Part shown: positions 7,064 through 18,886 of the stretch, in pieces
How the letters are laid out: every line of letters starts with the position of its first letter
Numbering within the stretch: the stretch's first letter is position 1
Source of the DNA: Trypanosoma brucei
Taxonomy: Eukaryota
Direction: 5' to 3'
NCBI GenBank assembly: GCA_000002445.1
Contig: CM000208.1
Coordinates: 160,001 to 224,000, forward strand
Length of the DNA: 64,000 nucleotides
The notes under the pieces: model-generated
The model's database searches: none
Told to the model about the DNA's origin: nothing
What the model saw: only the letters and a program-made list of their open reading frames with translations
Program-made: the position numbers and the translations under genes

Positions 7064-9037
7064 ATGTCGTACAAATATAGCAGTAGAGAATATTGTTCAC
7101 CTGTTTGTATGAGATGCGTGAAGTCGAATGGGGTACGAGGAAGTGTTGATACCGTGGGCGGGGATACGGGACGGTGCGAGTGTCACACTTCGATCGGGCA
7201 TCGACATAAATATTCAGTGGAGCGAAAGAACAATGCGGGTAGACAAACAACCTCCATATTGTCACCTGCACCATGCAGCGCCCGCGGTACTGCAACCGAT
7301 GCTCCTGCTGATCGCCAAAATGTTGACGGCCAGCGGCGTTCTTCATTTGCAAAACCCTCCCCAAATGACATAGTTTGGATCCCCACCTCTCAACTTCTTC
7401 CCCGTTTTCATGGCACTGACACCGGTGGAAGCAATGAAGAGGAGGAGTACTGCCCAGTGACGAAGTGGCCAAAACCGCAAGATATTCCGTTGCCGTCGAT
7501 GATTCCCCTCCCTTCCAGTGTTCTGCGCTCCCTTCCGCCGGAAAAGTCACAACCGCCATCACAATGGTCTTCCATCCCCGTAAATGAACAAACGATTAAG
7601 AAAAAGCGGGGATGTGACGGCCAGGGGTATGAAGTCGCGGAACGGCCCGTAGCACCAAGTGTGAGAGTAGAAGGGCATGTGTGTCCATGTGAAAAGCGCA
7701 TGTTACATACGTATCCGAGCAACCGCGAAACGGCAGAAACACATGAGGAGGCGGAGCAACAAAAGTGTGATGTAAAAGAATCTGAAGAAGAACCGGCCAA
7801 TATCAACAACAACAACAACACTCCGGGACAATATATTAATGAGTGCTGTGACTCTGATGAAACTCAAAAGTATGACAGCGTACAGATGTGGTGCCAGTCA
7901 CTTCGGCAACCGACTCGTCGGTGTGAGCAGCCACCACCGCGTTCAAGAAAATCGAGTGCTTCCCCTACAGCCGAGGGGTTTGCGGCTTGTGGCACCTCTC
8001 AGCACAGATGTACGGCAACTCATCCAGACGGTTCTTGCGAGAGGCGACGAGATTCGGAGTTGCGTGGCGGTAGTGGCGCTCGCGAGAATTCTTTACATCC
8101 TCCTCGGAAGAGCGTGGATAGCAAGGTTTCGAGGGGAACAAACAACATTCACGCAAGAAAATCTGAAACACGTAAATTGCGTGAGGTTGTGAATGTTAGA
8201 ACCACGTCTTCTAATTCAGATACGGCTTCGGTGAGAAGTGAGCCGGAGGAGGTTTCCAGAGATAGGGAAGAGAGGTTTCGGGTGCACCTGACAAACATGG
8301 ATGAGTTGTATCGACATCTACTGAGCAGATACGATGAGTTCCAGAAAGATCATGCGGATTTCTTGGAAAAAAATGGCAGCTCGAGACGGGTTGTGGATGA
8401 ACAAACTGCGCATCCACAGAAACTTTCCATAAAGAAGGACACGGTTGACTTAGTAGATGACATACCCCCATTACCTGAACGCGGGTACTCGGGTAAGTTA
8501 TATCCGCTTTCTGAAGACTCTCAGAAACTTCAAGAGCAGTTGATTAGCCTGGAGACGCGGTGGAAACAAACTGGAAGACCTAAAAAAGGAGGCGCGGAGG
8601 AACGAATGTGGGGTCTGGCTGAAACTGCAGTGAATGCAGAAAGGGACCGGAAGCAAACGCGACCACTGGCACGGCGCACAAAGACTCTCTCCGCCGATCG
8701 GAAATTTTCCAGCGGTCGAACATATGTGGTGAAAAAAGCAGAAAGTAAAGAATCAAGGGGTAGAACTCAGAGTGTGAAGCGTGTTCCAACTGATTCTAAA
8801 ATTGTCGGAACCACAAGGCACATGTCTCCTCAGGGTGGTGCACGGCGCCGTGACGTCTCTCCACAGTTGGTCTACAACTTCCTCGCTGCTCAGAAAGACA
8901 AAAATAGTGAGGAAAACGACGGCAACGGTGAGTGTGTAAGCGACAGTAGGGGTAGACACTTGGATTTCACTAGGGAACAAGTTCTCCACCTAGTTCGTGA
9001 ACGAAAGATGTTATTTAGTCGTGAAGAGAAAAAATGA
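7064..9037 (+). CDS. Hypothetical protein, 657 aa, basic and low-complexity, rich in R/S/P/E, with no recognisable domain.
   Basis: A 1.97-kb ATG-initiated ORF sits on the same strand as its neighbours. Minus-strand ORFs overlap it, but they are shorter and lie opposite the coding strand of the unit. Confidence 0.5.
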   Translation: MSYKYSSREYCSPVCMRCVKSNGVRGSVDTVGGDTGRCECHTSIGHRHKYSVERKNNAGRQTTSILSPAPCSARGTATDAPADRQNVDGQRRSSFAKPSPNDIVWIPTSQLLPRFHGTDTGGSNEEEEYCPVTKWPKPQDIPLPSMIPLPSSVLRSLPPEKSQPPSQWSSIPVNEQTIKKKRGCDGQGYEVAERPVAPSVRVEGHVCPCEKRMLHTYPSNRETAETHEEAEQQKCDVKESEEEPANINNNNNTPGQYINECCDSDETQKYDSVQMWCQSLRQPTRRCEQPPPRSRKSSASPTAEGFAACGTSQHRCTATHPDGSCERRRDSELRGGSGARENSLHPPRKSVDSKVSRGTNNIHARKSETRKLREVVNVRTTSSNSDTASVRSEPEEVSRDREERFRVHLTNMDELYRHLLSRYDEFQKDHADFLEKNGSSRRVVDEQTAHPQKLSIKKDTVDLVDDIPPLPERGYSGKLYPLSEDSQKLQEQLISLETRWKQTGRPKKGGAEERMWGLAETAVNAERDRKQTRPLARRTKTLSADRKFSSGRTYVVKKAESKESRGRTQSVKRVPTDSKIVGTTRHMSPQGGARRRDVSPQLVYNFLAAQKDKNSEENDGNGECVSDSRGRHLDFTREQVLHLVRERKMLFSREEKK

Positions 9038-9100: not shown

Positions 9101-9498
9101 TTATGGCCTATGCAGCACGCTTTTCGTTTTGTTTTGCTCATTGATGGAAAAGATCAAATAAAGAAATGAACACGCGGGTAAGATTAGAGCCGTACTCTTG
9201 TTTTGGGGAGGGATCAACCGTATCTGCCAGGAGAATATCACGGCAGCAAGAGGTGAAGCAGTACACGGATGGTTGATGTTTTTGTGTTTTACTCTTTTGC
9301 TTTGTTTTGCTTGTTAGTGGCCTTTGCATTTTATCAAACTGGTACCCCTCTGCCTATATGCCCAAGCAACCTGCTAGTTTGCGGAGTTTTTCTCTTACCA
9401 TCATCATCATCACAATTATTATCGTTGAATCGCGTTAGCTCCCTCCTCCATTTTTTTTAAATACTGCTGTTGGTACGTATATCCGCTTCTCATTGTGT

Positions 9499-9520
9499 TA
9501 TCTTCTTTTCTCCCGAGTGA
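9499..9520 (+). promoter_or_regulatory. Polypyrimidine tract and AG dinucleotides, a putative spliced-leader trans-splice acceptor region for PRMT5.
   Basis: tatcttcttttctcccgag lies immediately 5' of the first ATG at 9537, as is typical of kinetoplastid mRNA processing signals. Confidence 0.4.
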
Positions 9521-9536
9521 GGAACAGCCGCACGAA

Positions 9537-11891
9537 ATGAAGCCATGTGTTTCCGCTGCAGCTCCTGCGGATTGGCCGGTTGCCAGCGATGAACAAAAAC
9601 CATCGCGACCGGAGACAGCAATGGAGCACGACGAGGAAACGCGGGGGTGTTCGTCTTCTTCTGTGAGACTTCAGGGCTATGGAGTGAGCGGTGCGGGATC
9701 CTTAATGGACTCCATGAGGCAGCGGGAGATGAGTGGCTCGGCTTTTTTTATGTTTTCCCTAGATGGTGTAAACACCGATGACCCACTCGCAGGTAATGTG
9801 TCTCCCCTTGCGGCGTTGTGTCCTGCAGGGCAATACTCGAAAGAGTCTCAACACTGGTTTTGGAAGGTGCTGTCTAACACGTCATCATGGGGCATGACTG
9901 CTTGCGGTAGCGTGTCGTACTCATCGTGGGCCGACCCCAAATCCGTGCGATGTATTGAAGGTCAACTTCGTTTAGGGGCATTTTTAGGTATACACGCAGT
10001 TGTTGTACCCCTTCCTGATTTCGATGAGGAAGATCCCCAGTGCTCTGAGAAACTTAAAGCGGCTGCGCTTGTAATCTCCAAGCATTTGCAGCACTCACAA
10101 ACAACAAACGTTTGGGTACGCTGCGACGCTTCACGCCAAGCTGATCGTGTGGCTTTTTCGCGCCTTCGTACATTTGTTCTTTGGGGTGGGGAAAATCCAC
10201 CCACCGCTGAAGAAGCACCGCACCGAGTCGTTCGTCCGGCTCCTTACAGGATTGTAGCGTTTCTGAACTTTTCCGAAACGTTTGGTGCGATACCATCAGA
10301 GTGGCTTGGGGAGTCCGTTGCCGCGTTTGAACTTCCCAACGCTGAAAAGCTAAGGCGTGCGTTAAGCGCATCCGATTGCGGACGGCATATGAAACTTCCA
10401 AGTGACTTGATGCCACTGAAGGATTCTTACTGGGGCACTGCCCAACCGATGTTCGTTTCCCTAGCCACGTTCGTTGTTGAGCTGTTGCGCCGACGAGCAG
10501 CTCCAGTTTTTGCGATGGAGGAATTTGTTGATTCGTATCAATTGTTGAATACCTTGTACGAGATGCACGTAGCAGACGGGGGAAGAGATAAGTTTTTCGA
10601 CTACGAAGATGTCTTGCAACTTCCACTACAGCCTCTTGGACATATGCTTGCTAGTGGGGTGTATGAAGTGTTCGAACAAGATCGCACAAAATATCAACAG
10701 TACCACACTGCCATGAGCAAATATTTTAATGAGTGGTTGAACCACAGCGAAAGCCGCAGTCACGAGAAGATGTGGTTGCAAGGACCTAATCCCCGAGACG
10801 GTTGTGGTTGCAGCGCAATGGGAAGTGTGTATGTTGTGTTGCTTGGTGCTGGTCGGGGTCCATTGATCAGCGAGTGCTTGTGCGCTGCAACAGGTGTTGG
10901 GGTTCGCGTTCATTTATTTGTCGTAGAGAAAAATCCCGAGGCGTTGGAACTCGTGCGGCTGCGCGTGCGTGCTGATCCGCAGTGGCATGACTGGATGAAT
11001 TACTCTGGCCACGTAGTCGAAACAATTTATGCAGATGGCCGTAGTGTGTGGTCTGGAGAGGCTCCCGGAAGTGATGATCGGTTGCCGCCATACTGGGGTC
11101 TTTGTGATCTCGTTGTGTCCGAGTTACTTGGAAGTTTCGGCGACAATGAATTGAGTCCTGAGTGCCTTGATGATTTTTACTGCAATCTGTTGAGTTACCA
11201 AGAGTCGTCTGGGATCCCGTGTAATCCCTATCTGACGTCAATTCCACAGCAGTACACGGCATGGATTGCCCCACTGCATTCGGCGCGCATGGAGGAGTCG
11301 GTTGCAACTGCTGCTTTTGGAGGCCTCACAACTCCGCCAGCGGATTGCCACGACCGTCACGCCGCGTTGTACCACTCTATGTTTGTCAGCAACGTTTGCC
11401 GTGCGGTTGGATTGTGCCTCCCTCAACCTTGCTGGACGTTCCACCACTTCGCAACTAAAGTTCAATCGAAGGAACGAGAGGCAACACTTAACTTTACGTT
11501 GTCGGGAGATGGAAGGTTCAGTGGATTTATTTGCTACTTCTCCGCTGTGCTCTTTACTCCCGGGGACACGGGGAATGTTGAAGACAGCATCGCATTACTT
11601 TGCGCATCCGCTGGGTCGCTCTCCACCGTCCAGTACGGGCGCACTACTGGTTTATTTAGTTGGTTTCCTGCTTTTCTTCCTGTGGAGCCTCGTGATGTGG
11701 TGGAGGTGAAATGTGGAGATGAGCTGAGCATCCATCTGAAACGTTGTGTGGACGTTAAGAAAGGACGTGTATGGTACGAGTATGAAGCCTCAATTCTTGT
11801 GAAGGGACATCCAGATGGAAAATTTATGAAGCGGTTGACAAAGACGATGAATGCTGGCGGATGGGCGGGCCACATTTCTCTGCTGACGTGA
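9537..11891 (+). CDS. PRMT5: Protein arginine N-methyltransferase 5 (type II PRMT), ~784 aa, with a long N-terminal region.
   Basis: SAM motif I [30 protein letters not shown] and the following YCNLL...GIP match the hallmark PRMT5 segments [11 protein letters not shown] / [20 protein letters not shown]. The track start 9495 is GTG; the first ATG (MKPCVS) is preceded by a pyrimidine tract. Confidence 0.88.
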   Translation: [784 protein letters not shown]

Positions 11892-12506: not shown

Positions 12507-13169
12507 ATGCCCCGTTATTACACCCCACATGAGGTGCGTGCGCACTGCTTCGAGGATGATGCATACGTTTCCATCAATGGGAAAGTTCTAGATATAACTC
12601 CTCTCATACAAATGTATCAGGGCACTCGGTACGCCAGTTTGCTGCAGCCGCTTATTCTTGCGGCAGGAACCGATATGACACACCTTCTCGATAAGAAAAC
12701 AATGGATTTCAAAACATGCATCGATCCAGAGACGGGATTCCGCACGTATGCGCAACCTTTCGGCCGCTTCGCCCACACCCCGACGGTTCTCCCCGACAGT
12801 AGCATTGACCTCAGTTATGAGGTGCCATGGTGGCAAGACGAGCGGTACGTTATTGGACAACTCACACGCAAGACCCGAAAAATTCGCATCGTTAATACTC
12901 TCAATGGTCACGAACACACACTCGAGGTTTGTTCGGAGGAAACGCTTCGAGAAATAGTGATGACGAGGTACTTGAGCCACAACGCCCACGCGCTAAGCTA
13001 CACGTGGCGGCGGCTTGACAGTGAACCCCGAGACCTTGATATGGACAAAACGCTAGACGAGAACGGTGTGCTGGACGAGTCGGAGGAATTCGAGTCATTG
13101 GGATTAAATGCAGATTATTACATTCCCGCGCTTCATTTGTATTACGATGATGATCTCACGGAGGCGTAA
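12507..13169 (+). CDS. Cytochrome b5 domain-containing protein 1 (CYB5D1)-like, 220 aa, with a b5 fold that lacks the HPGG haem-ligand motif.
   Basis: N-terminal YTPHEVRAHCFEDDAYVSINGKVLDIT matches the cytochrome b5 core, but the HPGG position reads PLIQMYQG. Downstream, WWQDERY, IRIVNTLNGHEHTLEV and the C-terminal DDDLTEA resemble the CYB5D1 family as recalled from memory. Confidence 0.7.
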   Translation: MPRYYTPHEVRAHCFEDDAYVSINGKVLDITPLIQMYQGTRYASLLQPLILAAGTDMTHLLDKKTMDFKTCIDPETGFRTYAQPFGRFAHTPTVLPDSSIDLSYEVPWWQDERYVIGQLTRKTRKIRIVNTLNGHEHTLEVCSEETLREIVMTRYLSHNAHALSYTWRRLDSEPRDLDMDKTLDENGVLDESEEFESLGLNADYYIPALHLYYDDDLTEA

Positions 13170-13854
13170 TTTGTCTAGAGCGTGGTGCGCCAAAACATTC
13201 AAGAAGAGAACGAAGTGTGGGAGAGGGAAGGGACAACGGCAGAGTTTGTTGGAGACGCCCTCGTGTGGACGTGAGGAAGGATAGAGGGAGTTTGGGTTTT
13301 TGTGTATGTGACCAAACTGACCGTTTTTTTTTGTTCTTGCCGCGTTTCTTCCCCGGGGGCTTGCTCCTTCATCCGTTTGTGTCCCTCTTTTCATAACTTC
13401 GTCCATGTAAAGAACGAGTTACTGCGTGTGTTTGTTTACATATTTGCCGCATTTGTAGGCAAATCACCACTCATACGGGAGGGAGAGGGGGTAGGTCGGT
13501 GAGTGTCGCTCCCCAAAGCTATTCTTCCCTGATCCCTCCTTTATCTCACTTGTATTTCTTGTTGTTGTGTTGTTTTTTTTTTTGCGTTCACTTCCAGTGT
13601 CTCTCCTTAAAGATATACACACTCACGGGTTAAAAACGCTGATTCCACTTATCGTCTTTATTTACCGTTCTCTACTCGGCACTTACCATGTTCATAGCAA
13701 GATTAAACTGTGGTAGGGGCAAGTCTTTGTTTTCCGGACACACCGCATCTGTCAAGTATTAATTTTGTAGCATTGATCTTATTATCGAGAGAGGCTGAAA
13801 CGGGTATTTGGGTTTGATTACATTTACTAAAATCATTTGTTGCAACTGGTGGTG

Positions 13855-15105
13855 ATGCTCCGAGTCTCGTGCCGTTTTTTTGGTGCCCTTCAGGAAATCT
13901 TTTCTCGGGGTCAAGGGGTGTGGAATTTGGATTTTGGTAACTCGCCGACGACGGAGGATCTCATCTTCAACTCGGCCCCCAAGACCTCGACACCCCCTTT
14001 TCACGTCCTCGACCTTGAAGGTAATATCGTTAACAAAATAAACGAACCAGTGGTGCCGAAGGAAACATTAGTGAAGATAATGGAAACGATGATACGGTCA
14101 AATACTATCGACAACATTCTTTTGGAGGCGCAGCGACAGGGTCGAATTTCATTTTACCTTACCGCATTGGGTGAGGAGGCCACCGTCGTTGGTACGGCTG
14201 CAGGATTAGAGATACGGGATGAGGCCTTCCTGCAGTATCGTGAGGCTGGGTTCCTCCTGTACCGTGGTTATAACATTCCACAGTTGGTTGCGCAATGCAT
14301 GGGGAATGTGGAAGACGTGCTGAAAGGGAGGCAGATGCCCATACATTATGGATCGCGGGAGTTAAATGTGCATATGGTAAGTTCGCCACTCGCAACACAG
14401 ATTCCACATGCGGCAGGTGCGGGTTATGCTTTTCGGCTTGAGAATGAGGAATTGTCCGATGAAAGCAAGTCACGAGTAGCCGTAGTGATTTTCGGTGAAG
14501 GAGCAGCGAGTGAGGGAGATTTCCATGGGGGAGTTAACTTTGCCGCTGCTACGGGATCTAACACTCTCTTCGTTGTACGGAATAATGGCTATGCTATTTC
14601 GACTCCTGCGCGTGTACAGTACAAAGGTGATGGAGTGCTAGCGCGTGGTATCGGCTATGGTATTCCATCTGCTCGAGTGGATGGGCAGGACGTGCTCGCA
14701 ATATTGCAAGCCGTCCAGCAAGCACGACAAATCATACGTACTACCAACCAGCCTGTTCTAATCGAAGCTCTTTGCTATCGTTTACAACACCACTCCTCTT
14801 CTGATGATAGTGGTATGTACCGTTCAAGTGATGAAATTGAAAACTTCTTAGCGCTCTCCCCACTTGATCGATTTGAAAAATTCCTTGTGAAACGGGACTT
14901 ATGGACAGCTGAGCATACGGGGGCGCTGGCGAAACAGGTTCGTGAGGAACTGTTGCAGGAGTTACGTCGACAAGAATTGTTACCTCATTGGCCGGCAGAT
15001 GTTATGCATGATGATGTCTACAAGGTAAAGACACCAGACTTGGTTAAAGCACAAAAGGAATTGCAAGCTCACTACGAACGAAACAGGGGATTCTACGGCA
15101 AGTGA
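13855..15105 (+). CDS. BCKDHA: 2-oxoisovalerate (branched-chain alpha-keto acid) dehydrogenase E1 alpha subunit, mitochondrial.
   Basis: Near-colinear match to BCKDHA: YREAGFLLYRGY, GRQMPIHYGS, SSPLATQIPHAAGAGYA, FGEGAASEGDFH (TPP-binding), RNNGYAISTP, YRLQHHSSSDDS. The track start 13837 is TTG; the first ATG gives MLRVSCRFFGA, which looks like a mitochondrial presequence. Confidence 0.9.
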   Translation: MLRVSCRFFGALQEIFSRGQGVWNLDFGNSPTTEDLIFNSAPKTSTPPFHVLDLEGNIVNKINEPVVPKETLVKIMETMIRSNTIDNILLEAQRQGRISFYLTALGEEATVVGTAAGLEIRDEAFLQYREAGFLLYRGYNIPQLVAQCMGNVEDVLKGRQMPIHYGSRELNVHMVSSPLATQIPHAAGAGYAFRLENEELSDESKSRVAVVIFGEGAASEGDFHGGVNFAAATGSNTLFVVRNNGYAISTPARVQYKGDGVLARGIGYGIPSARVDGQDVLAILQAVQQARQIIRTTNQPVLIEALCYRLQHHSSSDDSGMYRSSDEIENFLALSPLDRFEKFLVKRDLWTAEHTGALAKQVREELLQELRRQELLPHWPADVMHDDVYKVKTPDLVKAQKELQAHYERNRGFYGK

Positions 15106-15562
15106 CACGAAAAAGGGGGATGGTGTCGGAAGGGTAGTCTCACATTGTTGTCGACGTATGCACCACTCTGCCGTTCCTGCATCGTCGATTTTATCGTCTT
15201 GAAAGAACGTGTGTTCTCAAACTTACACCTGAAGTGTTTTTTTCATCAATTTTAGTGAACTCATCTGATCCTCCACTTCCTTTTTTTTGTCAAAAAATTT
15301 TTTGAATACTTTTGAGCGCAATACAACTAACGAGCACTCCTAGTAATGCTGTTCCTTCATAACCTCCTTTGCTTCTTTCTCTCATCGCATCTTTTGTTCG
15401 GCCCCTTGAAGTGGCAGTAGCGCCAGCGGTCATTAGGTTTCCTACGGTGTTTGTCCACAGTTCCACATATTATTAACCACAAGAGTACCAAATCACTGTT
15501 AGTTGTTAAATTTGTAGCAACGGGTGGTTGCAGCATCACTCGTTATTCTTCTCACATGTGTA

Positions 15563-16243
15563 ATGTCGTATCGATTTAAGGGTCGCTTGAACCCTACCAT
15601 ATTGCGTAAACTACCCCGCAATTTGGTAGTGTTTGATGGACACTGTTTGATGTGTCAGGCACGTGTGCAATATGTACTGGAACGTAACTTCTCGTATTTT
15701 AGCCTCCTTAATCTTACCCATGACGTGGACAAGGTTAAGCTTGAGGAGAATAAAGTGCTCTTTTGTAGCTTTGACTCAATTGAATGGCGGGAGCTGCGCC
15801 GGCATTTTCCCGATGTTACAAAAGACGTAGAGGGTATTATACTATTCGAGAAGGTACCGTCACGCACTGCCGACTTCCTGAGTAGGGTACGGCGAATGAA
15901 AAAGCGATCAAAGTCCTTATCCAAGTCAAACGAAGCGCTAAGCTTTCCGGTTGCGTCGTCATCGCACCGGCGGAGCTTTACCGATGTGGAAGATGAACTT
16001 GACATACTTATTTCAACTAAGCACACTGCTGTGTGTCGTGTGGGTATGAAATTGGATAGGTGGTTGCCAAGTGTAGTTGCCCGGTGCATGTTATACGCCA
16101 TGCCGCGGTGGATTGGGGACCGTTGGTATGATCGCGTGTTGAGGCGGCGGACATTATGGGGGACATCTGAAGAAGATGCAGTTCGGTACCCCGCCCGTGT
16201 GCTCGGTTTGAAGGAGCGAACATGGCGGCTGCGGGACATGTGA
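15563..16243 (+). CDS. DUF393 (thiol-disulfide oxidoreductase DCC family)-like protein.
   Basis: N-terminal LVVFDGHCLMCQARVQYVLERN fits the DUF393 F/YDGxCxLC signature. The track start 15524 is GTG; the first ATG is at +39 (MSYRFKG). The opposite-strand 203-aa ORF is treated as a shadow. Confidence 0.5.
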   Translation: MSYRFKGRLNPTILRKLPRNLVVFDGHCLMCQARVQYVLERNFSYFSLLNLTHDVDKVKLEENKVLFCSFDSIEWRELRRHFPDVTKDVEGIILFEKVPSRTADFLSRVRRMKKRSKSLSKSNEALSFPVASSSHRRSFTDVEDELDILISTKHTAVCRVGMKLDRWLPSVVARCMLYAMPRWIGDRWYDRVLRRRTLWGTSEEDAVRYPARVLGLKERTWRLRDM

Positions 16244-16567
16244 GGCAATTCGCATTTTGTTGCCACTACTTCGGGTTCCCCGCCATTCTACACTTTTTTT
16301 TTTTGTTTTGGGCGAATTAGCAAACCTTTTTTTTTTTGACATTTCCCCTCATTGACGAGACCCATGTTTTCCGTGTTTGCTCGTTAGCATGTTCTTGTGC
16401 ATATTTCTAATTACAGTAACCACAAATTCCCAGTTATGTGTACTTCGCATCCAACTGCCGCTGTTAGTGTTCACTACGCTACATATATATATATTTCTAT
16501 GAAGATTTTATTTAGTGTGACGTGTCATTCGTAGGGTCTGCTCTTTGTGCATGCTCTCATAGTTTTA

Positions 16568-17440
16568 ATGCGTCGTTCATTAGTATTTCCTCCCTGTCAT
16601 TTGCAGGAGGCCCGTTTGTTGCAGTCGCAACAACTTTTTGGTTGGTACCACCAGACACGCCACTTCACCTCATTAGTTGACCGTTTGAGTACAGGCGTTG
16701 CGAGAAAGTTATCATCGTTAACGGAAACGCACATGATGCCGCTAAGCGAGAAACATATCACAGAGCCGCGACGCCCCTACCCAAAGCGTCCTTCAATGCA
16801 GGAGAATTTGGCCGAGCGCTTGGCTGAGCAACGGCGGTGGCGGAGCCGTGTGGTGCCGCAGCAAATTATACTCTCTAAAGACAAACTTTACATTGAGTTT
16901 GTGTGGAGTGCCGCCACCCTCAGCGCCGCTGCCGCGCGGGAGATGAGGCAGCAACAAAATAACGAGGAGGAAAACGGGGATGGTTGCACACAAAAAAGAA
17001 AGGGAATATCCTGCGGTAGCTTTGCTAATGATGGTATCATTAAGAGTGAGAAGCTTATGTCCCACCGCACACGCTTCCTTGCGGAGTTCTTGCGCGCTTA
17101 CTCCCCCAGCACCGATGTGATTGGTGCTGATGCCCTCATTTACGGTCGTCGCGGCATCACCATAACGGATGTTATTCCAGTTGGAAACTACGCTTTGCGC
17201 ATCGTGTTTTCCGACGGGCATTCAGGCGGTATTTACCCCTACGAATACCTGTTTCATTTAGGTCAATGCAAATACACGAAAATGCGGGAGTATATAAGAC
17301 GACTGCGAGAGAAACGCAAGTCGAGAGATCCGCCGAAGCGGGTCCCGTCAAAGTACGTTCCGCGCGGTCGGAATGCCGCAGAGGGCACACCGAAACGTGA
17401 CAAAACTGATGACTGTGGCCATCGCGTTGCTGCAAAATAG
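16568..17440 (+). CDS. DUF971 / gamma-butyrobetaine hydroxylase-like N-terminal zinc-domain protein, with a probable mitochondrial presequence.
   Basis: ITITDVIPVGNYALRIVFSDGHSGGIYPYEYLFHLGQCKY fits the DUF971 pattern (L.I.wsDGH.s.y....LR..C.C). The first ATG gives MRRSLVFPPCHLQEARLL. Confidence 0.5.
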   Translation: MRRSLVFPPCHLQEARLLQSQQLFGWYHQTRHFTSLVDRLSTGVARKLSSLTETHMMPLSEKHITEPRRPYPKRPSMQENLAERLAEQRRWRSRVVPQQIILSKDKLYIEFVWSAATLSAAAAREMRQQQNNEEENGDGCTQKRKGISCGSFANDGIIKSEKLMSHRTRFLAEFLRAYSPSTDVIGADALIYGRRGITITDVIPVGNYALRIVFSDGHSGGIYPYEYLFHLGQCKYTKMREYIRRLREKRKSRDPPKRVPSKYVPRGRNAAEGTPKRDKTDDCGHRVAAK

Positions 17441-17470
17441 TACCCAAAGTAATTTAACAGCGTAAAGAAA

Positions 17471-17495
17471 GCTGGTGTGTGTGTGTGTGGGGGGG
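17471..17495. repeat. (GT)7 followed by a G11 homopolymer.
   Basis: gtgtgtgtgtgtgtgggggggggggt, in the 3' flank of the DUF971 gene. Confidence 0.8.
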
Positions 17496-17881
17496 GGGGT
17501 ATTGGCCTCTGCTATTTTTTTTTTTTGCTTACTGATTATGAACAGGTCCTTGTGTAACCGCTCGAGCTGTCAATTTGGTTATGGATATATTGGATAGGAG
17601 AGTATGCCACTGCTTACAAGTTAGTTATTACTACCGTCACATTATTGTTTCATTTTACGTATAGTTGCTTACGTAATCTCTTTGTCCCCCTCCAGTCAAT
17701 TCACTCTCCTTTCCGCACAGTTAGTGCCTCCATTTTCATTTACTTCTGTGGGTTTGTCCTTTCTTTGGGTTTGCTAACTAGTGTTTAATGTTTGTCGCCT
17801 TCCTTGCTACTTTCCTTTTATAGGCGTGGACTTAATAAGGGTGCTACGGCGCCCCTTCATATTTGCAACAGTAGAAAGGCA

Positions 17882-18886
17882 ATGACACGCACATCACGGA
17901 GTACCCATGAGGCGGTTTGGTACTTTACGTACATTATGGTACAGCGCGGTGGTATCGTAGTTTTGACAATGGGCCTATCTCTTGTAGTTTTCTGCAGTGT
18001 GACAACTGTGCGCTCAGTGATACCAATGCTGGTGGAACCAGGGACTTTAGGCTTCATGATTTTGTACGGCCTATGCTGTATACTATCATTCGGTATTTTG
18101 TTTAATTACGTTGCTGTCGCTTGCCTCTGTGGACCAAATATAGACCCGAAGGAAACGAAAAGATTGACAGAGCAGGCCGAGGCACTGCCCCCTCAGGAAA
18201 GATGCCGACTGTTGGACGCGCCGAGGCGCTTTTGTCACATATGCGAGCGTCTAAAAGCGCCGCGTGAGTACCACTGCCGGATATGTGGTCGTTGCATTGC
18301 AAGGAGGGACCACCACTGCCCATGGATAAACAATTGTGTTCAAGCGGAAAACAACCGTTACTTTTTAATGATGGTGTTGTACTTGTTGCTTTCAACAGGT
18401 TTTGTGTCATCTATGTTATGTGCAATATACACACATTCCGTGTGGCACGGCTCCACTGTAGCAGCTCGTGATGTCAAACGGTCAACATCGCATCAGTTCT
18501 GCAAAAGTGGAGTTTACTCTTCTCCGATATTGTTGCTTTTTGGCGTTTGCATCATTACGTTCTTCATACTTCTCTTCCTATTTGGAGCGGCCACACTTGC
18601 GGCGCTACGGAACGAAACAGCTGTGGAATCATTCATTGTGGCACAAAAACAAAGTGCCTTTCAAGGGAGTTTGGTTCCCTTTCGCAATCCATATGACCTT
18701 GGCCGACAACGTAACTTACTTGCATTATTCGAAACGAAGGGAGATCCATTGATTACACATTTAAGGAGAGGAGGCCGCATATCTAACATTTGGATTGGTG
18801 TGTGGCTTCTGCTTCCCACATTACGTCCCTCTGCATTTGACGGCATGCATTATGTTGTCTTTGATGACGTGGTGCATGCCGTTTAA
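17882..18886 (+). CDS. DHHC-type zinc finger protein S-acyltransferase (palmitoyltransferase), multi-pass membrane protein.
   Basis: CHICERLKAPREYHCRICGRCIARRDHHCPWINNCV is the canonical DHHC-CRD (Cx2Cx9HCx2Cx4DHHCxW). It is flanked by hydrophobic helices. The first ATG is 90 nt after the TTG track start. Confidence 0.85.
   Translation: MTRTSRSTHEAVWYFTYIMVQRGGIVVLTMGLSLVVFCSVTTVRSVIPMLVEPGTLGFMILYGLCCILSFGILFNYVAVACLCGPNIDPKETKRLTEQAEALPPQERCRLLDAPRRFCHICERLKAPREYHCRICGRCIARRDHHCPWINNCVQAENNRYFLMMVLYLLLSTGFVSSMLCAIYTHSVWHGSTVAARDVKRSTSHQFCKSGVYSSPILLLFGVCIITFFILLFLFGAATLAALRNETAVESFIVAQKQSAFQGSLVPFRNPYDLGRQRNLLALFETKGDPLITHLRRGGRISNIWIGVWLLLPTLRPSAFDGMHYVVFDDVVHAV

What the first reader, a model, noticed from the sequence alone, without database searches (positions are those of the whole stretch)
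12507..13169. Cytochrome b5 fold that has lost its haem ligands (CYB5D1-like)
The first 30 residues follow the cytochrome b5 haem-binding domain pattern (YTPHEV..H...DDAYVSINGKVLDIT). The invariant HPGG motif that provides the first axial His is replaced by PLIQMYQG. The second-His region reads AGTDMTHLL. The remainder (WWQDERY, IRIVNTLNGHEHTLEV, C-terminal DDDLTEA) resembles the CYB5D1 family, a conserved cilium or flagellum protein. The family is remembered from knowledge of the family, not searched. A haem-less b5 scaffold in a flagellated parasite is a good candidate for a structural or redox-sensing flagellar component and not an electron carrier.
Basis: partly seen in the sequence, partly recalled or inferred. 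Interest (0 to 1): 0.55.

Follow-up and report, generated by a model that had tools for sequence, protein, structure and literature searches.

The report
Trypanosome radial-spoke protein CYB5D1 (TAX-2)
This gene encodes the Trypanosoma brucei copy of CYB5D1 (TAX-2), an already studied flagellar radial-spoke protein whose cytochrome-b5-like domain does lack the two classical haem-binding histidines; the algal orthologue lacks the first one too yet is reported to bind haem, so "haem-less" is not established.

Summary
The ORF at 12507..13169 (+) is real and encodes 220 aa. It is 100% identical over its full length to PDB chain 9e5c_4o, "Cytochrome b5 domain-containing protein 1", in the cryo-EM model of the T. 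brucei flagellar 96-nm doublet repeat. Databases name it TAX-2 or CMF17.

So is the sequence observation:
- Tyr37 sits where the HPGG histidine of cytochrome b5 sits.
- The second axial histidine maps to a loop (Lys64/Thr65) with no histidine.
- Solved b5 structures superpose over only about 58-60 residues, and strands replace the helix that follows the second histidine.

Residues 111-220 form a ubiquitin-like domain.

The inference "haem-less scaffold" is not secure. Chlamydomonas CYB5D1 has Asn at the first-histidine position, and Asp58 was needed for its reported hemin binding in vitro. That Asp is invariant in the family and is Asp56 here.

One small lineage-specific point: T. brucei and T. 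congolense alone replace the otherwise invariant Trp60 (D-I-S-H-W-F becomes D-M-T-H-L-L) in the helix next to that Asp.

Verdict: an already known gene, family, location and structure. Interest is low.

The parts
12507..13169 (+). Complete CDS of T. brucei CYB5D1 / TAX-2 (220 aa plus stop codon)
   Evidence: ORF and translation. 100% identity over 220/220 residues to PDB 9e5c chain 4o. Exact protein found in T. b. gambiense chr 10 (FN554973) and T. equiperdum assemblies.
12507..12692 (+). Residues 1-62: cytochrome-b5-like core (beta1, alpha1, beta-hairpin, helices 31-37, 43-52 and 58-60)
   Evidence: Pfam PF00173 matches residues 6-62. AF2 secondary structure. Foldseek aligns b5 chains over about 58-60 columns at rmsd about 3 A and 25-29% identity. 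The family profile hits b5 chains at E 1e-9 to 1e-6, ending near profile position 66.
12615..12617 (+). Tyr37 codon, in the column of the first axial His (His39 of HPGG) of cytochrome b5
   Evidence: Alignments. The family column holds Y 31, N 8, H 7, F 1, Q 1 of 48.
12672..12674 (+). Asp56 codon, invariant Asp of the AG-D motif, equivalent to Chlamydomonas Asp58
   Evidence: Invariant in 48/48. D58G abolishes hemin binding in Chlamydomonas CYB5D1 (PMC13505981). Equivalence read from the pairwise alignment.
12675..12689 (+). Met57-Thr58-His59-Leu60-Leu61: the short helix after Asp56, remodelled in salivarian trypanosomes from the family consensus I-S-H-W-F
   Evidence: Trp60 is W in 46/46 other homologues, with Leu only in T. 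brucei and T. congolense. Position 57 is I in 44/48 and M here. Position 61 is F in 39/48 and L here. The helix aligns with b5 A54-T55-E56-N57-F58.
12696..12701 (+). Lys64-Thr65: the loop where the second axial His (His63 of b5, His66 of b2) would map; no His present
   Evidence: Profile alignments to human CYB5B and yeast b2 (low alignment confidence). Column composition.
12717..12719 (+). Cys71 codon; Cys in 22/48, all kinetoplastid-like sequences of the alignment, where other eukaryotes have His, Tyr or Phe
   Evidence: The column holds C 22, H 12, Y 10, F 4 of 48.
12693..12836 (+). Residues 63-110: CYB5D1-specific extension (short strands, long loop, invariant G86, H90 in 47/48, W108-W109). 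It replaces the alpha5/alpha6 half of a canonical b5 domain.
   Evidence: AF2 secondary structure shows strands at 61-62, 70-72 and 79-81 and no helix. Conservation.
12837..13166 (+). Residues 111-220: ubiquitin-like (beta-grasp) C-terminal domain, ending in the conserved Y-x-D-D-L-T-E-A tail
   Evidence: Foldseek hits to UBX, SUMO, ubiquitin and FERM F1 domains, TM (target) 0.66-0.79. Weak profile hits to ubiquitin over positions 131-155. No Pfam hit. Described as a COBL-type ubiquitin-like domain in PMC13505981.

Best explanation
The ORF is the Trypanosoma brucei orthologue of CYB5D1, known in trypanosomes as TAX-2 or CMF17 and in Chlamydomonas as FAP198.

Shown:
- It is a two-domain, 220-aa subunit of the axoneme. 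It is built into the 96-nm repeat of the flagellar doublet microtubule, with two chains per model.
- The N-terminal about 60 residues keep the beta-sheet and the first three pocket helices of the cytochrome b5 fold. Both axial histidines are missing, and strands and loops stand where the helix after the second histidine should be.
- The C-terminal half is a ubiquitin-like domain.

Inferred:
- The two chains sit one each in radial spokes RS1 and RS2, as in other organisms.
- The protein works mainly as an architectural and regulatory piece of the spoke neck or stalk, needed for normal axoneme organisation and beat coordination. It does not work as an electron-transfer cytochrome.
- The degenerate b5 pocket, centred on the invariant Asp56, may still bind haem weakly and reversibly, without bis-His ligation, as reported for the Chlamydomonas orthologue. 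If so, it would couple flagellar redox or haem status to spoke function.
- Whether the T. brucei protein keeps that binding is untested. Its pocket helix is unusually diverged.
For: - Identity: 100% over 220/220 residues to 9e5c_4o. E = 2.2e-57 to human 8j07_Z, 1.7e-59 to bovine sperm 9fqr_G0 and 4.4e-51 to Chlamydomonas radial spoke 7jtk_k/8glv.
- Structure: the AF2 model (pLDDT 88.9) superposes on 9e5c_4o at TM 0.91, and on the human, bovine and Chlamydomonas chains at TM 0.81-0.88 normalised by query length.
- Names: sources give 'TAX-2 [T. equiperdum]', 'Cytochrome b5 domain-containing protein 1' and 'Component of motile flagella 17 [T. cruzi]'.
- Function in T. brucei: eYFP::TAX2 labels the axoneme. 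TAX-2 RNAi gives axonemal defects, including wrong doublet numbers, in 16% of cells (Farr & Gull 2009, as described in PMC6771564).
- Location in other organisms: Cyb5d1 is fitted into the stalk/base regions of mouse RS1 and RS2 (PMC10774353). FAP198 is listed among Chlamydomonas spoke-neck proteins (bioRxiv 10.1101/2023.08.11.551218).
- Ligand loss.
- Partial b5 fold.
- Haem and redox role in the family: hemin binding and a D58G phenotype in Chlamydomonas (PMC13505981). The equivalent Asp is invariant in 48/48.
- Taxa: every homologue that carries an organism name comes from a lineage I know to have flagellated cells, namely kinetoplastids, cnidarian, mollusc, tunicate, crinoids, ctenophore, fish, moth, Plasmodiophora and stramenopile algae.
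Against: - No experiment on haem binding exists for the trypanosome protein.
- The published hemin-binding evidence for the family is in vitro. It uses a GST fusion with added hemin, gives a Soret peak at 402 nm, and identifies no axial ligand.
- I could not check whether any cryo-EM model carries haem.
- No ligand-capable residue in the pocket half is invariant except His13, which is also conserved in ordinary b5 proteins, where the ligands are His39 and His63. His59 is H in 40/48 and Tyr37 is Y in 31/48.
- T. brucei and T. congolense have lost Trp60, which is invariant in the other 46 homologues, and Phe61 beside Asp56. This may mean the pocket is further degraded in this lineage.
Confidence: 0.9

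Rival explanations
1. Purely structural, haem-free scaffold. The b5-like domain of the T. brucei protein binds no haem at all and serves only as a protein-protein interaction module in the radial spoke.
For: - Both canonical axial His residues are absent.
- The half of the b5 fold that carries the second His is replaced by strands and loops.
- The Pfam match stops at profile position 52 of 74.
- The salivarian-specific changes W60L, F61L and I57M lie in the helix that in b5 carries the haem-contact residue Phe58.
- In Chlamydomonas, deleting the N-terminal domain prevents axonemal incorporation, so the domain clearly has a structural role.
Against: - The Chlamydomonas orthologue lacks the first His as well (Asn at that column) yet shows D58-dependent hemin binding and a D58G motility phenotype with normal flagellar localisation (PMC13505981).
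- Asp56 is invariant. That is hard to explain by scaffold function alone, although a structural role for this Asp is possible.
Confidence: 0.3
2. Bona fide cytochrome b5-type electron carrier that shuttles electrons in the flagellum through a tightly bound bis-ligated haem.
For: - The Pfam Cyt-b5 match is above the gathering score.
- Database names include 'heme-binding domain-containing protein'.
Against: - Neither axial His is present.
- The column of the first ligand varies across the family as Y/N/H/F/Q.
- The helix after the second ligand is missing.
- The reported Soret peak of the orthologue-hemin complex is 402 nm. From general haem-protein knowledge this does not fit a low-spin bis-His b5, whose oxidised Soret peak is near 413 nm.
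Confidence: 0.02
3. MAPR-like (PGRMC1/CYB5D2-type) ligand-binding domain that binds haem through a tyrosine (Tyr37), or binds a sterol or lipid instead of haem.
For: - Tyr occupies the first-His column in 31/48 homologues, including T. brucei.
- The functional Asp was identified by analogy with CYB5D2, per PMC13505981.
- A 402 nm Soret peak resembles five-coordinate, Tyr-ligated MAPR haem (my own knowledge of PGRMC1, not tested here).
Against: - Chlamydomonas CYB5D1, the only member tested, has Asn and not Tyr at this column.
- Among the 60 matches listed (of 67), the sequence profile names only classical b5 domains, a few b5-domain proteins and ubiquitin chains; none is named PGRMC. The 50 Foldseek matches likewise include no PGRMC entry.
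- There is no evidence for any sterol ligand.
Confidence: 0.1

Closest known systems
T. brucei CYB5D1 / TAX-2 (PDB 9e5c chain 4o; 96-nm repeat of the T. brucei flagellar doublet microtubule, released 2025-03-12)
   Same: The sequence is identical over 220/220 residues. The predicted fold superposes at TM 0.91. Gene order matches T. brucei-group chromosome 10 assemblies.
   Different: Nothing. This is the same protein.
Chlamydomonas CYB5D1 / FAP198 (PDB 7jtk_k, 8glv) and mammalian CYB5D1 (8j07_Z human, 9fqr_G0 bovine)
   Same: - Same length class and two-domain architecture, with about 46% identity.
- All lack the HPGG histidine.
- All share the invariant Asp (Cr D58 = Tb D56), G86, WW108-109, N159/H161 and the C-terminal DDLTE tail.
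- All are modelled as part of the axoneme: the Chlamydomonas chain in isolated radial spoke 1, the others in 96-nm repeat models.
   Different: - T. brucei has a 3-4 residue insertion after the YQG motif ('TRYAS'), shared with other trypanosomatids.
- It has Cys71 where the animal and Chlamydomonas proteins have His.
- Uniquely with T. congolense, it has Leu60-Leu61 in place of Trp-Phe.
- Hemin binding is shown only for the Chlamydomonas protein.
Classical cytochrome b5 (e.g. bovine/human microsomal b5, flavocytochrome b2 haem domain)
   Same: The first about 60 residues share the fold and sequence motifs: Y-T-x-x-E-V-x-x-H, W-V-x-x-x-G-K-V-Y/L-D-L/I-T, and A-G-x-D.
   Different: - His39 is replaced by Tyr37.
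- His63 has no counterpart.
- The alpha5/alpha6 half of the haem crevice is replaced.
- There is no membrane anchor.
- It is fused to a ubiquitin-like domain.
- It is a stoichiometric axonemal subunit and not a soluble or membrane electron carrier.
MAPR proteins (PGRMC1, CYB5D2/neuferricin, yeast Dap1)
   Same: These are b5-like domains without bis-His ligation. A conserved Asp in the A-G-x-D motif is needed for haem binding (the analogy used in PMC13505981).
   Different: - CYB5D1 is closer in sequence and fold to classical b5 than to MAPR entries.
- The MAPR ligand tyrosines were not shown to be conserved here.
- Cellular location and partners differ.

Membership tests
CYB5D1 (cytochrome b5 domain-containing protein 1; TAX-2 / CMF17 / FAP198) | Full-length sequence similarity to characterised CYB5D1 proteins | tested here: met
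   100% identity to T. brucei 9e5c_4o. E = 1.7e-59, 2.2e-57 and 4.4e-51 to the bovine, human and Chlamydomonas chains, each covering residues 2-219 or 3-219.
CYB5D1 (cytochrome b5 domain-containing protein 1; TAX-2 / CMF17 / FAP198) | Two-domain architecture: N-terminal b5-like domain plus C-terminal ubiquitin-like (COBL-type) domain | tested here: met
   Pfam Cyt-b5 matches residues 6-62. The AF2 model and Foldseek give b5 hits for the N-terminus and UBX/SUMO/ubiquitin hits for the C-terminus. The architecture is described in PMC13505981.
CYB5D1 (cytochrome b5 domain-containing protein 1; TAX-2 / CMF17 / FAP198) | Physical presence in the axoneme / radial spoke | tested here: met
   The identical sequence is a modelled chain (2 copies) in the T. 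brucei 96-nm doublet repeat structure 9e5c. Axonemal eYFP::TAX2 signal is reported in PMC6771564. Its exact position within the spoke in T. brucei was not read here.
CYB5D1 (cytochrome b5 domain-containing protein 1; TAX-2 / CMF17 / FAP198) | Family-invariant residues (H13, D18, G54, D56, G86, W108, W109, N159, H161, Y165, W167, and others) | tested here: met
   All 19 invariant columns of the 48-sequence alignment are present in the window protein. It departs from columns conserved at 85% or more at only 3 of 63: I30, M57 and L60.
CYB5D1 (cytochrome b5 domain-containing protein 1; TAX-2 / CMF17 / FAP198) | Hemin binding dependent on the AG-D aspartate | not testable with these tools
   The Asp is present (D56). 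Binding is shown only for the Chlamydomonas protein (PMC13505981). It needs biochemistry on the T. brucei protein.
Classical cytochrome b5 (bis-His haem electron carrier) | First axial ligand: His of the H-P-G-G motif | tested here: not met
   Tyr37 occupies this column. The motif reads Y-Q-G-T.
Classical cytochrome b5 (bis-His haem electron carrier) | Second axial ligand: His about 24 residues later (V-G-H-S), at the start of helix alpha5 | tested here: not met
   It maps to Lys64/Thr65 (low-confidence alignment), and there is no His in residues 60-89. No helix is predicted after residue 60 in this domain.
Classical cytochrome b5 (bis-His haem electron carrier) | Complete b5 fold (about 75-80 residues, four-helix haem crevice) | tested here: not met
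   The local structural alignments to b5 chains (rmsd about 3 A) cover only 57-60 columns; the longer alignments (about 120 columns) have rmsd 6-8 A. The Pfam match covers profile positions 1-52 of 74.
MAPR (PGRMC1 / CYB5D2 type b5-like haem/steroid-binding proteins) | Closest sequence or fold relatives are MAPR domains, with conserved Tyr haem ligands | tested here: inconclusive
   No entry named PGRMC or MAPR appears among the 60 profile matches listed, of 67 found, or among the top 50 Foldseek hits. The Tyr37 column is only 65% Tyr, and it is Asn in the haem-binding Chlamydomonas protein. No direct alignment with MAPR sequences was made.

The most novel reading that the evidence does not exclude
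Salivarian trypanosomes (T. brucei group and T. congolense) may carry a natural 'pocket-dead' CYB5D1. In the helix next to the invariant Asp56 they alone replace Trp60, which is W in the other 46 homologues, and also Phe61 and Ile57 (D-I-S-H-W-F becomes D-M-T-H-L-L). Their radial-spoke protein may therefore have lost the hemin and redox sensing reported for Chlamydomonas while keeping its structural role. If so, these haem-auxotrophic parasites would be a natural separation-of-function case for the proposed haem, redox and Ca2+ control of flagellar beating.
Probability: 0.2. Interest if true: 0.35.

Novelty: already known. Interest (0 to 1): 0.12.

Why it matters
It matters little as a discovery. 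The gene has been named (TAX-2; the T. cruzi orthologue is annotated CMF17) and knocked down, its protein has been localised to the axoneme and modelled in an in-situ cryo-EM structure, and the family's role in radial spokes and beat coordination is published.

The useful outcome is a correction. Loss of the two classical b5 histidines is a family-wide trait of CYB5D1 and cannot by itself be read as loss of haem binding, because the Chlamydomonas orthologue, which lacks the first of them too, is reported to bind hemin.

The axial ligand or ligands of that haem remain undefined. No ligand-capable pocket residue other than His13 is invariant. That is a real open point for the family, and the Trp60/Phe61 loss in T. 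brucei offers a cheap comparative test.

Tried and rejected
- A literature search for the PDB code 9E5C returned only unrelated papers.
- Four papers are not held in the library: Zhao et al. 2021, Xia et al. 2025 and my recalled PMC id for Gui et al. 2021. I could not read the original hemin-binding data, the position of the T. brucei chain within the spoke, or whether any cryo-EM model contains haem.
- Searches combining 'radial spoke', 'cytochrome b5', 'heme' and 'cryo-EM', or 'FAP198' with 'cytochrome b5', found nothing.
- I considered His59 ('THLL') as a displaced second ligand. It aligns with surface residue Glu56 of b5 and is His in only 40/48 homologues. It is not excluded, but it is not the canonical ligand.
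- I considered Cys71 and its His counterpart in animals and algae as the second ligand. The column is C/H/Y/F, so it is not a conserved ligand.
- I considered Tyr37 as a MAPR-style ligand. The haem-binding Chlamydomonas protein has Asn there.
- Pfam gives no hit for the C-terminal 120 residues. The ubiquitin-like assignment therefore rests on fold comparison and weak profile hits.
The core of the human CYB5A sequence was checked against the PDB: the printed rabbit b5 alignment has an identical HPGG-to-VGHS region, and human 2i96 matches residues 1-108 at E = 6.9e-70.
- Residue-level geometry of the pocket could not be examined, because the tools return no coordinates.

Full report
**1. The observation.**
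The window holds an ATG-initiated ORF at 12507..13169 on the + strand. The short antisense and out-of-frame ORFs listed over the same interval were not examined further. Pfam's Cyt-b5 model (PF00173) matches residues 6-62 at E = 2.2e-6 and 28 bits, above the curated cut-off of 23.7. The match covers only profile positions 1-52 of 74.

**2. What it is.**
A search of all PDB chain sequences gives a 220/220 identical match to chain 4o of 9e5c, "Cytochrome b5 domain-containing protein 1". The same search gives full-length matches to three other CYB5D1 chains:

| Chain | Source | E-value |
|---|---|---|
| 9fqr_G0 | bovine sperm | 1.7e-59 |
| 8j07_Z | human airway cilia | 2.2e-57 |
| 7jtk_k / 8glv | Chlamydomonas radial spoke | 4.4e-51 |

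Foldseek describes 9e5c as the [quoted passage not shown], released 2025-03-12. An AlphaFold2 model built from a 48-sequence family alignment (mean pLDDT 88.9) superposes on that chain at TM 0.91. It superposes on the human, bovine and Chlamydomonas chains at TM 0.81-0.88, normalised by query length.

The large protein collection holds the identical sequence under the names "TAX-2 [Trypanosoma equiperdum]" and "Cytochrome b5 domain-containing protein 1 (Trypanosoma)". The T. cruzi orthologue (84% identical) is called "Component of motile flagella 17".

The exact protein is encoded on chromosome-scale records, including T. b. gambiense FN554973. The neighbours are the same as in the window: PRMT5 upstream, a 2-oxoacid dehydrogenase E1 alpha subunit downstream, then DCC1-like, GBBH-like and DHHC genes, all on one strand. 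The window is therefore a T. brucei-group chromosomal segment, and the gene is the known TAX-2/CYB5D1.

**3. What is already published.**
- TAX-2 was tagged with eYFP and labels the axoneme. It was knocked down by Farr and Gull (2009). As summarised in PMC6771564, 72 h of RNAi gave various axonemal defects, including altered doublet number, in 16% of cells, without a growth defect.
- Cyb5d1 is placed in the stalk/base regions of mouse radial spokes RS1 and RS2 (PMC10774353).
- FAP198 is listed among the spoke-neck proteins of Chlamydomonas (bioRxiv 10.1101/2023.08.11.551218).
- The PDB count of two chains per T. brucei model fits one copy each in RS1 and RS2. That placement is my inference.
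[quoted passage not shown] Both are needed for incorporation into the axoneme.
- The same paper reports hemin binding by GST-CYB5D1, seen as a 382->402 nm shift and hemin-dependent peroxidase activity. D58G abolishes both. D58G still reaches the flagellum but reduces beat coordination.

**4. The haem ligands.**

*First axial histidine.* I built a profile from residues 1-100 of the 48 homologues and aligned it to five b5-type haem domains. The core of the human CYB5A sequence was checked against the PDB. In all five alignments the family column holding Tyr37 pairs with the His of HPGG. The phmmer alignment to 1cxy shows the same pairing. Across the family that column is Y 31, N 8, H 7, F 1, Q 1. 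The first ligand is therefore not conserved as His anywhere in the family, apart from a minority of sequences.

*Second axial histidine.* Sequence similarity to b5 fades just before it.
- Where the alignment continues (human CYB5B, yeast b2), the second histidine falls on Lys64/Thr65, with low alignment confidence.
- Those columns contain essentially no His in 48 sequences.
- The T. brucei protein has no His between residues 60 and 89.

*Other candidates.*
- His59 of "THLL" pairs with Glu56 of b5. From my knowledge of b5, that is a surface acidic residue at the rim of the haem crevice and not a ligand. His59 is His in 40/48 homologues.
- Cys71 is Cys in 22/48, all kinetoplastid-like sequences of the alignment. 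Animals, Chlamydomonas and others have His, Tyr or Phe there.

*Fold.*
- The model has the b5 strands and helices 31-37, 43-52 and 58-60. It then has strands instead of the helix that follows the second ligand in b5.
- The local Foldseek alignments to solved b5 chains cover only 57-60 columns at about 3 Å; the longer ones (about 120 columns) have rmsd 6-8 Å.
- The family profile's matches to most b5 chains end near profile position 66.

**5. Why "haem-less" does not follow.**
The Chlamydomonas protein has Asn at the first-ligand column ("KANQGA") and is the member for which hemin binding was reported. The one residue shown to be needed, Asp58 of the A-G-x-D motif, is invariant in 48/48 sequences and is Asp56 here. 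Absence of bis-His ligation is therefore a trait of the whole family and does not discriminate binders from non-binders.

The published binding evidence has limits. It is in vitro and names no ligand. From general knowledge, a 402 nm Soret peak suggests a five-coordinate or loosely bound haem, unlike that of a b5-type cytochrome.

In my alignment the only invariant ligand-capable residue in the N-terminal 100 residues is His13. Ordinary b5 proteins also conserve it, and their haem ligands are His39 and His63. His90 is His in 47/48.

**6. A lineage-specific detail.**
Among 63 columns conserved at 85% or more in the other 46 homologues, the T. brucei protein departs at three: I30, M57 and L60. 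All three are in the b5-like domain, and two are in the short helix after Asp56.
- Trp60 is W in 46/46 other sequences and Leu only in T. brucei and T. congolense.
- Phe61, the column pairing with the b5 haem-contact residue Phe58, is also Leu in these two species.
- T. cruzi, T. melophagium, Leishmania and the bodonids keep the Trp.

This could mean that the pocket is further degraded in salivarian trypanosomes. It could equally be a neutral hydrophobic swap. It is the only point here that I did not find described in the papers I could read.

**7. Mechanism and rivals.**

*Best explanation (confidence about 0.9 for identity and role).* This is a radial-spoke structural and regulatory subunit. 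A partial b5 module and a ubiquitin-like module dock it into the spoke. It is not an electron carrier. Its pocket may bind haem weakly as a redox or haem sensor, as proposed for Chlamydomonas.

*Rivals.*
- A wholly haem-free scaffold in T. brucei (about 0.3, nested within the main explanation as an alternative for the pocket).
- A MAPR-like pocket using Tyr or binding a sterol (about 0.1).
- A true b5 cytochrome (about 0.02).

**8. Comparison and verdict.**
Every testable defining feature of CYB5D1 membership is met. Three defining features of classical cytochrome b5 (both ligands and the complete fold) were tested and are not met.

The named homologues come only from lineages with flagellated cells.

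The finding is an accurate reading of a known gene. The family, location, knock-down phenotype and in-situ structure are all published, and the one interpretive leap (haem-less) runs against published data on an orthologue. Novelty: already known. Interest: low.

Noticed in passing
window 12675-12689 (residues 57-61): T. brucei and T. congolense alone read D-M-T-H-L-L where 46 other CYB5D1 homologues keep an invariant Trp (consensus D-I-S-H-W-F). This is the helix adjoining the Asp needed for hemin binding in Chlamydomonas.
   Followed up: partly
window 12717-12719 (Cys71): All kinetoplastid-like CYB5D1 sequences in the alignment (22/48) have Cys in the K-T-C-[IV]-D motif, where animals, Chlamydomonas and others have His, Tyr or Phe. 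Its significance is unknown.
   Followed up: partly
window 12624-12635 (residues 40-43, 'TRYA'): A 3-5 residue insertion after the Y-x-G motif is seen in the trypanosomatid sequences and a few of the unnamed kinetoplastid-like ones. It lies between the helices that correspond to b5 alpha2 and alpha3.
   Followed up: no
window 9495-11891 (+): The upstream ORF (798 aa as listed from a GTG; 784 aa as called in the assemblies) is a PRMT5-type arginine methyltransferase (PF05185 E = 6.8e-41, PF17286 E = 1.8e-22).
   Followed up: partly
window 13837-15105 (+): The downstream ORF is a 2-oxoacid dehydrogenase E1 alpha subunit (PF00676, E = 4.7e-81). The called gene in the assemblies is 416 aa, so the true start is probably an ATG a few codons inside the listed TTG ORF.
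   Followed up: partly
window 15524-18886 (+): Three further same-strand genes: a DCC1-like thiol-disulfide oxidoreductase (weak, E = 5.9e-7), a protein with a GBBH-like N-terminal domain (E = 3.5e-15) and a DHHC palmitoyltransferase (E = 1.9e-28).
   Followed up: partly
window 7064-9037 (+): A 657-aa ORF with no Pfam match at E <= 0.01. It is called as a gene at the same position in all three T. brucei-group assemblies.
   Followed up: no
window 1-64000: All 21 long non-overlapping ORFs (200 aa or more) lie on the + strand. The two long minus-strand ORFs overlap + strand ORFs. This fits a single trypanosomatid polycistronic transcription unit.
   Followed up: no
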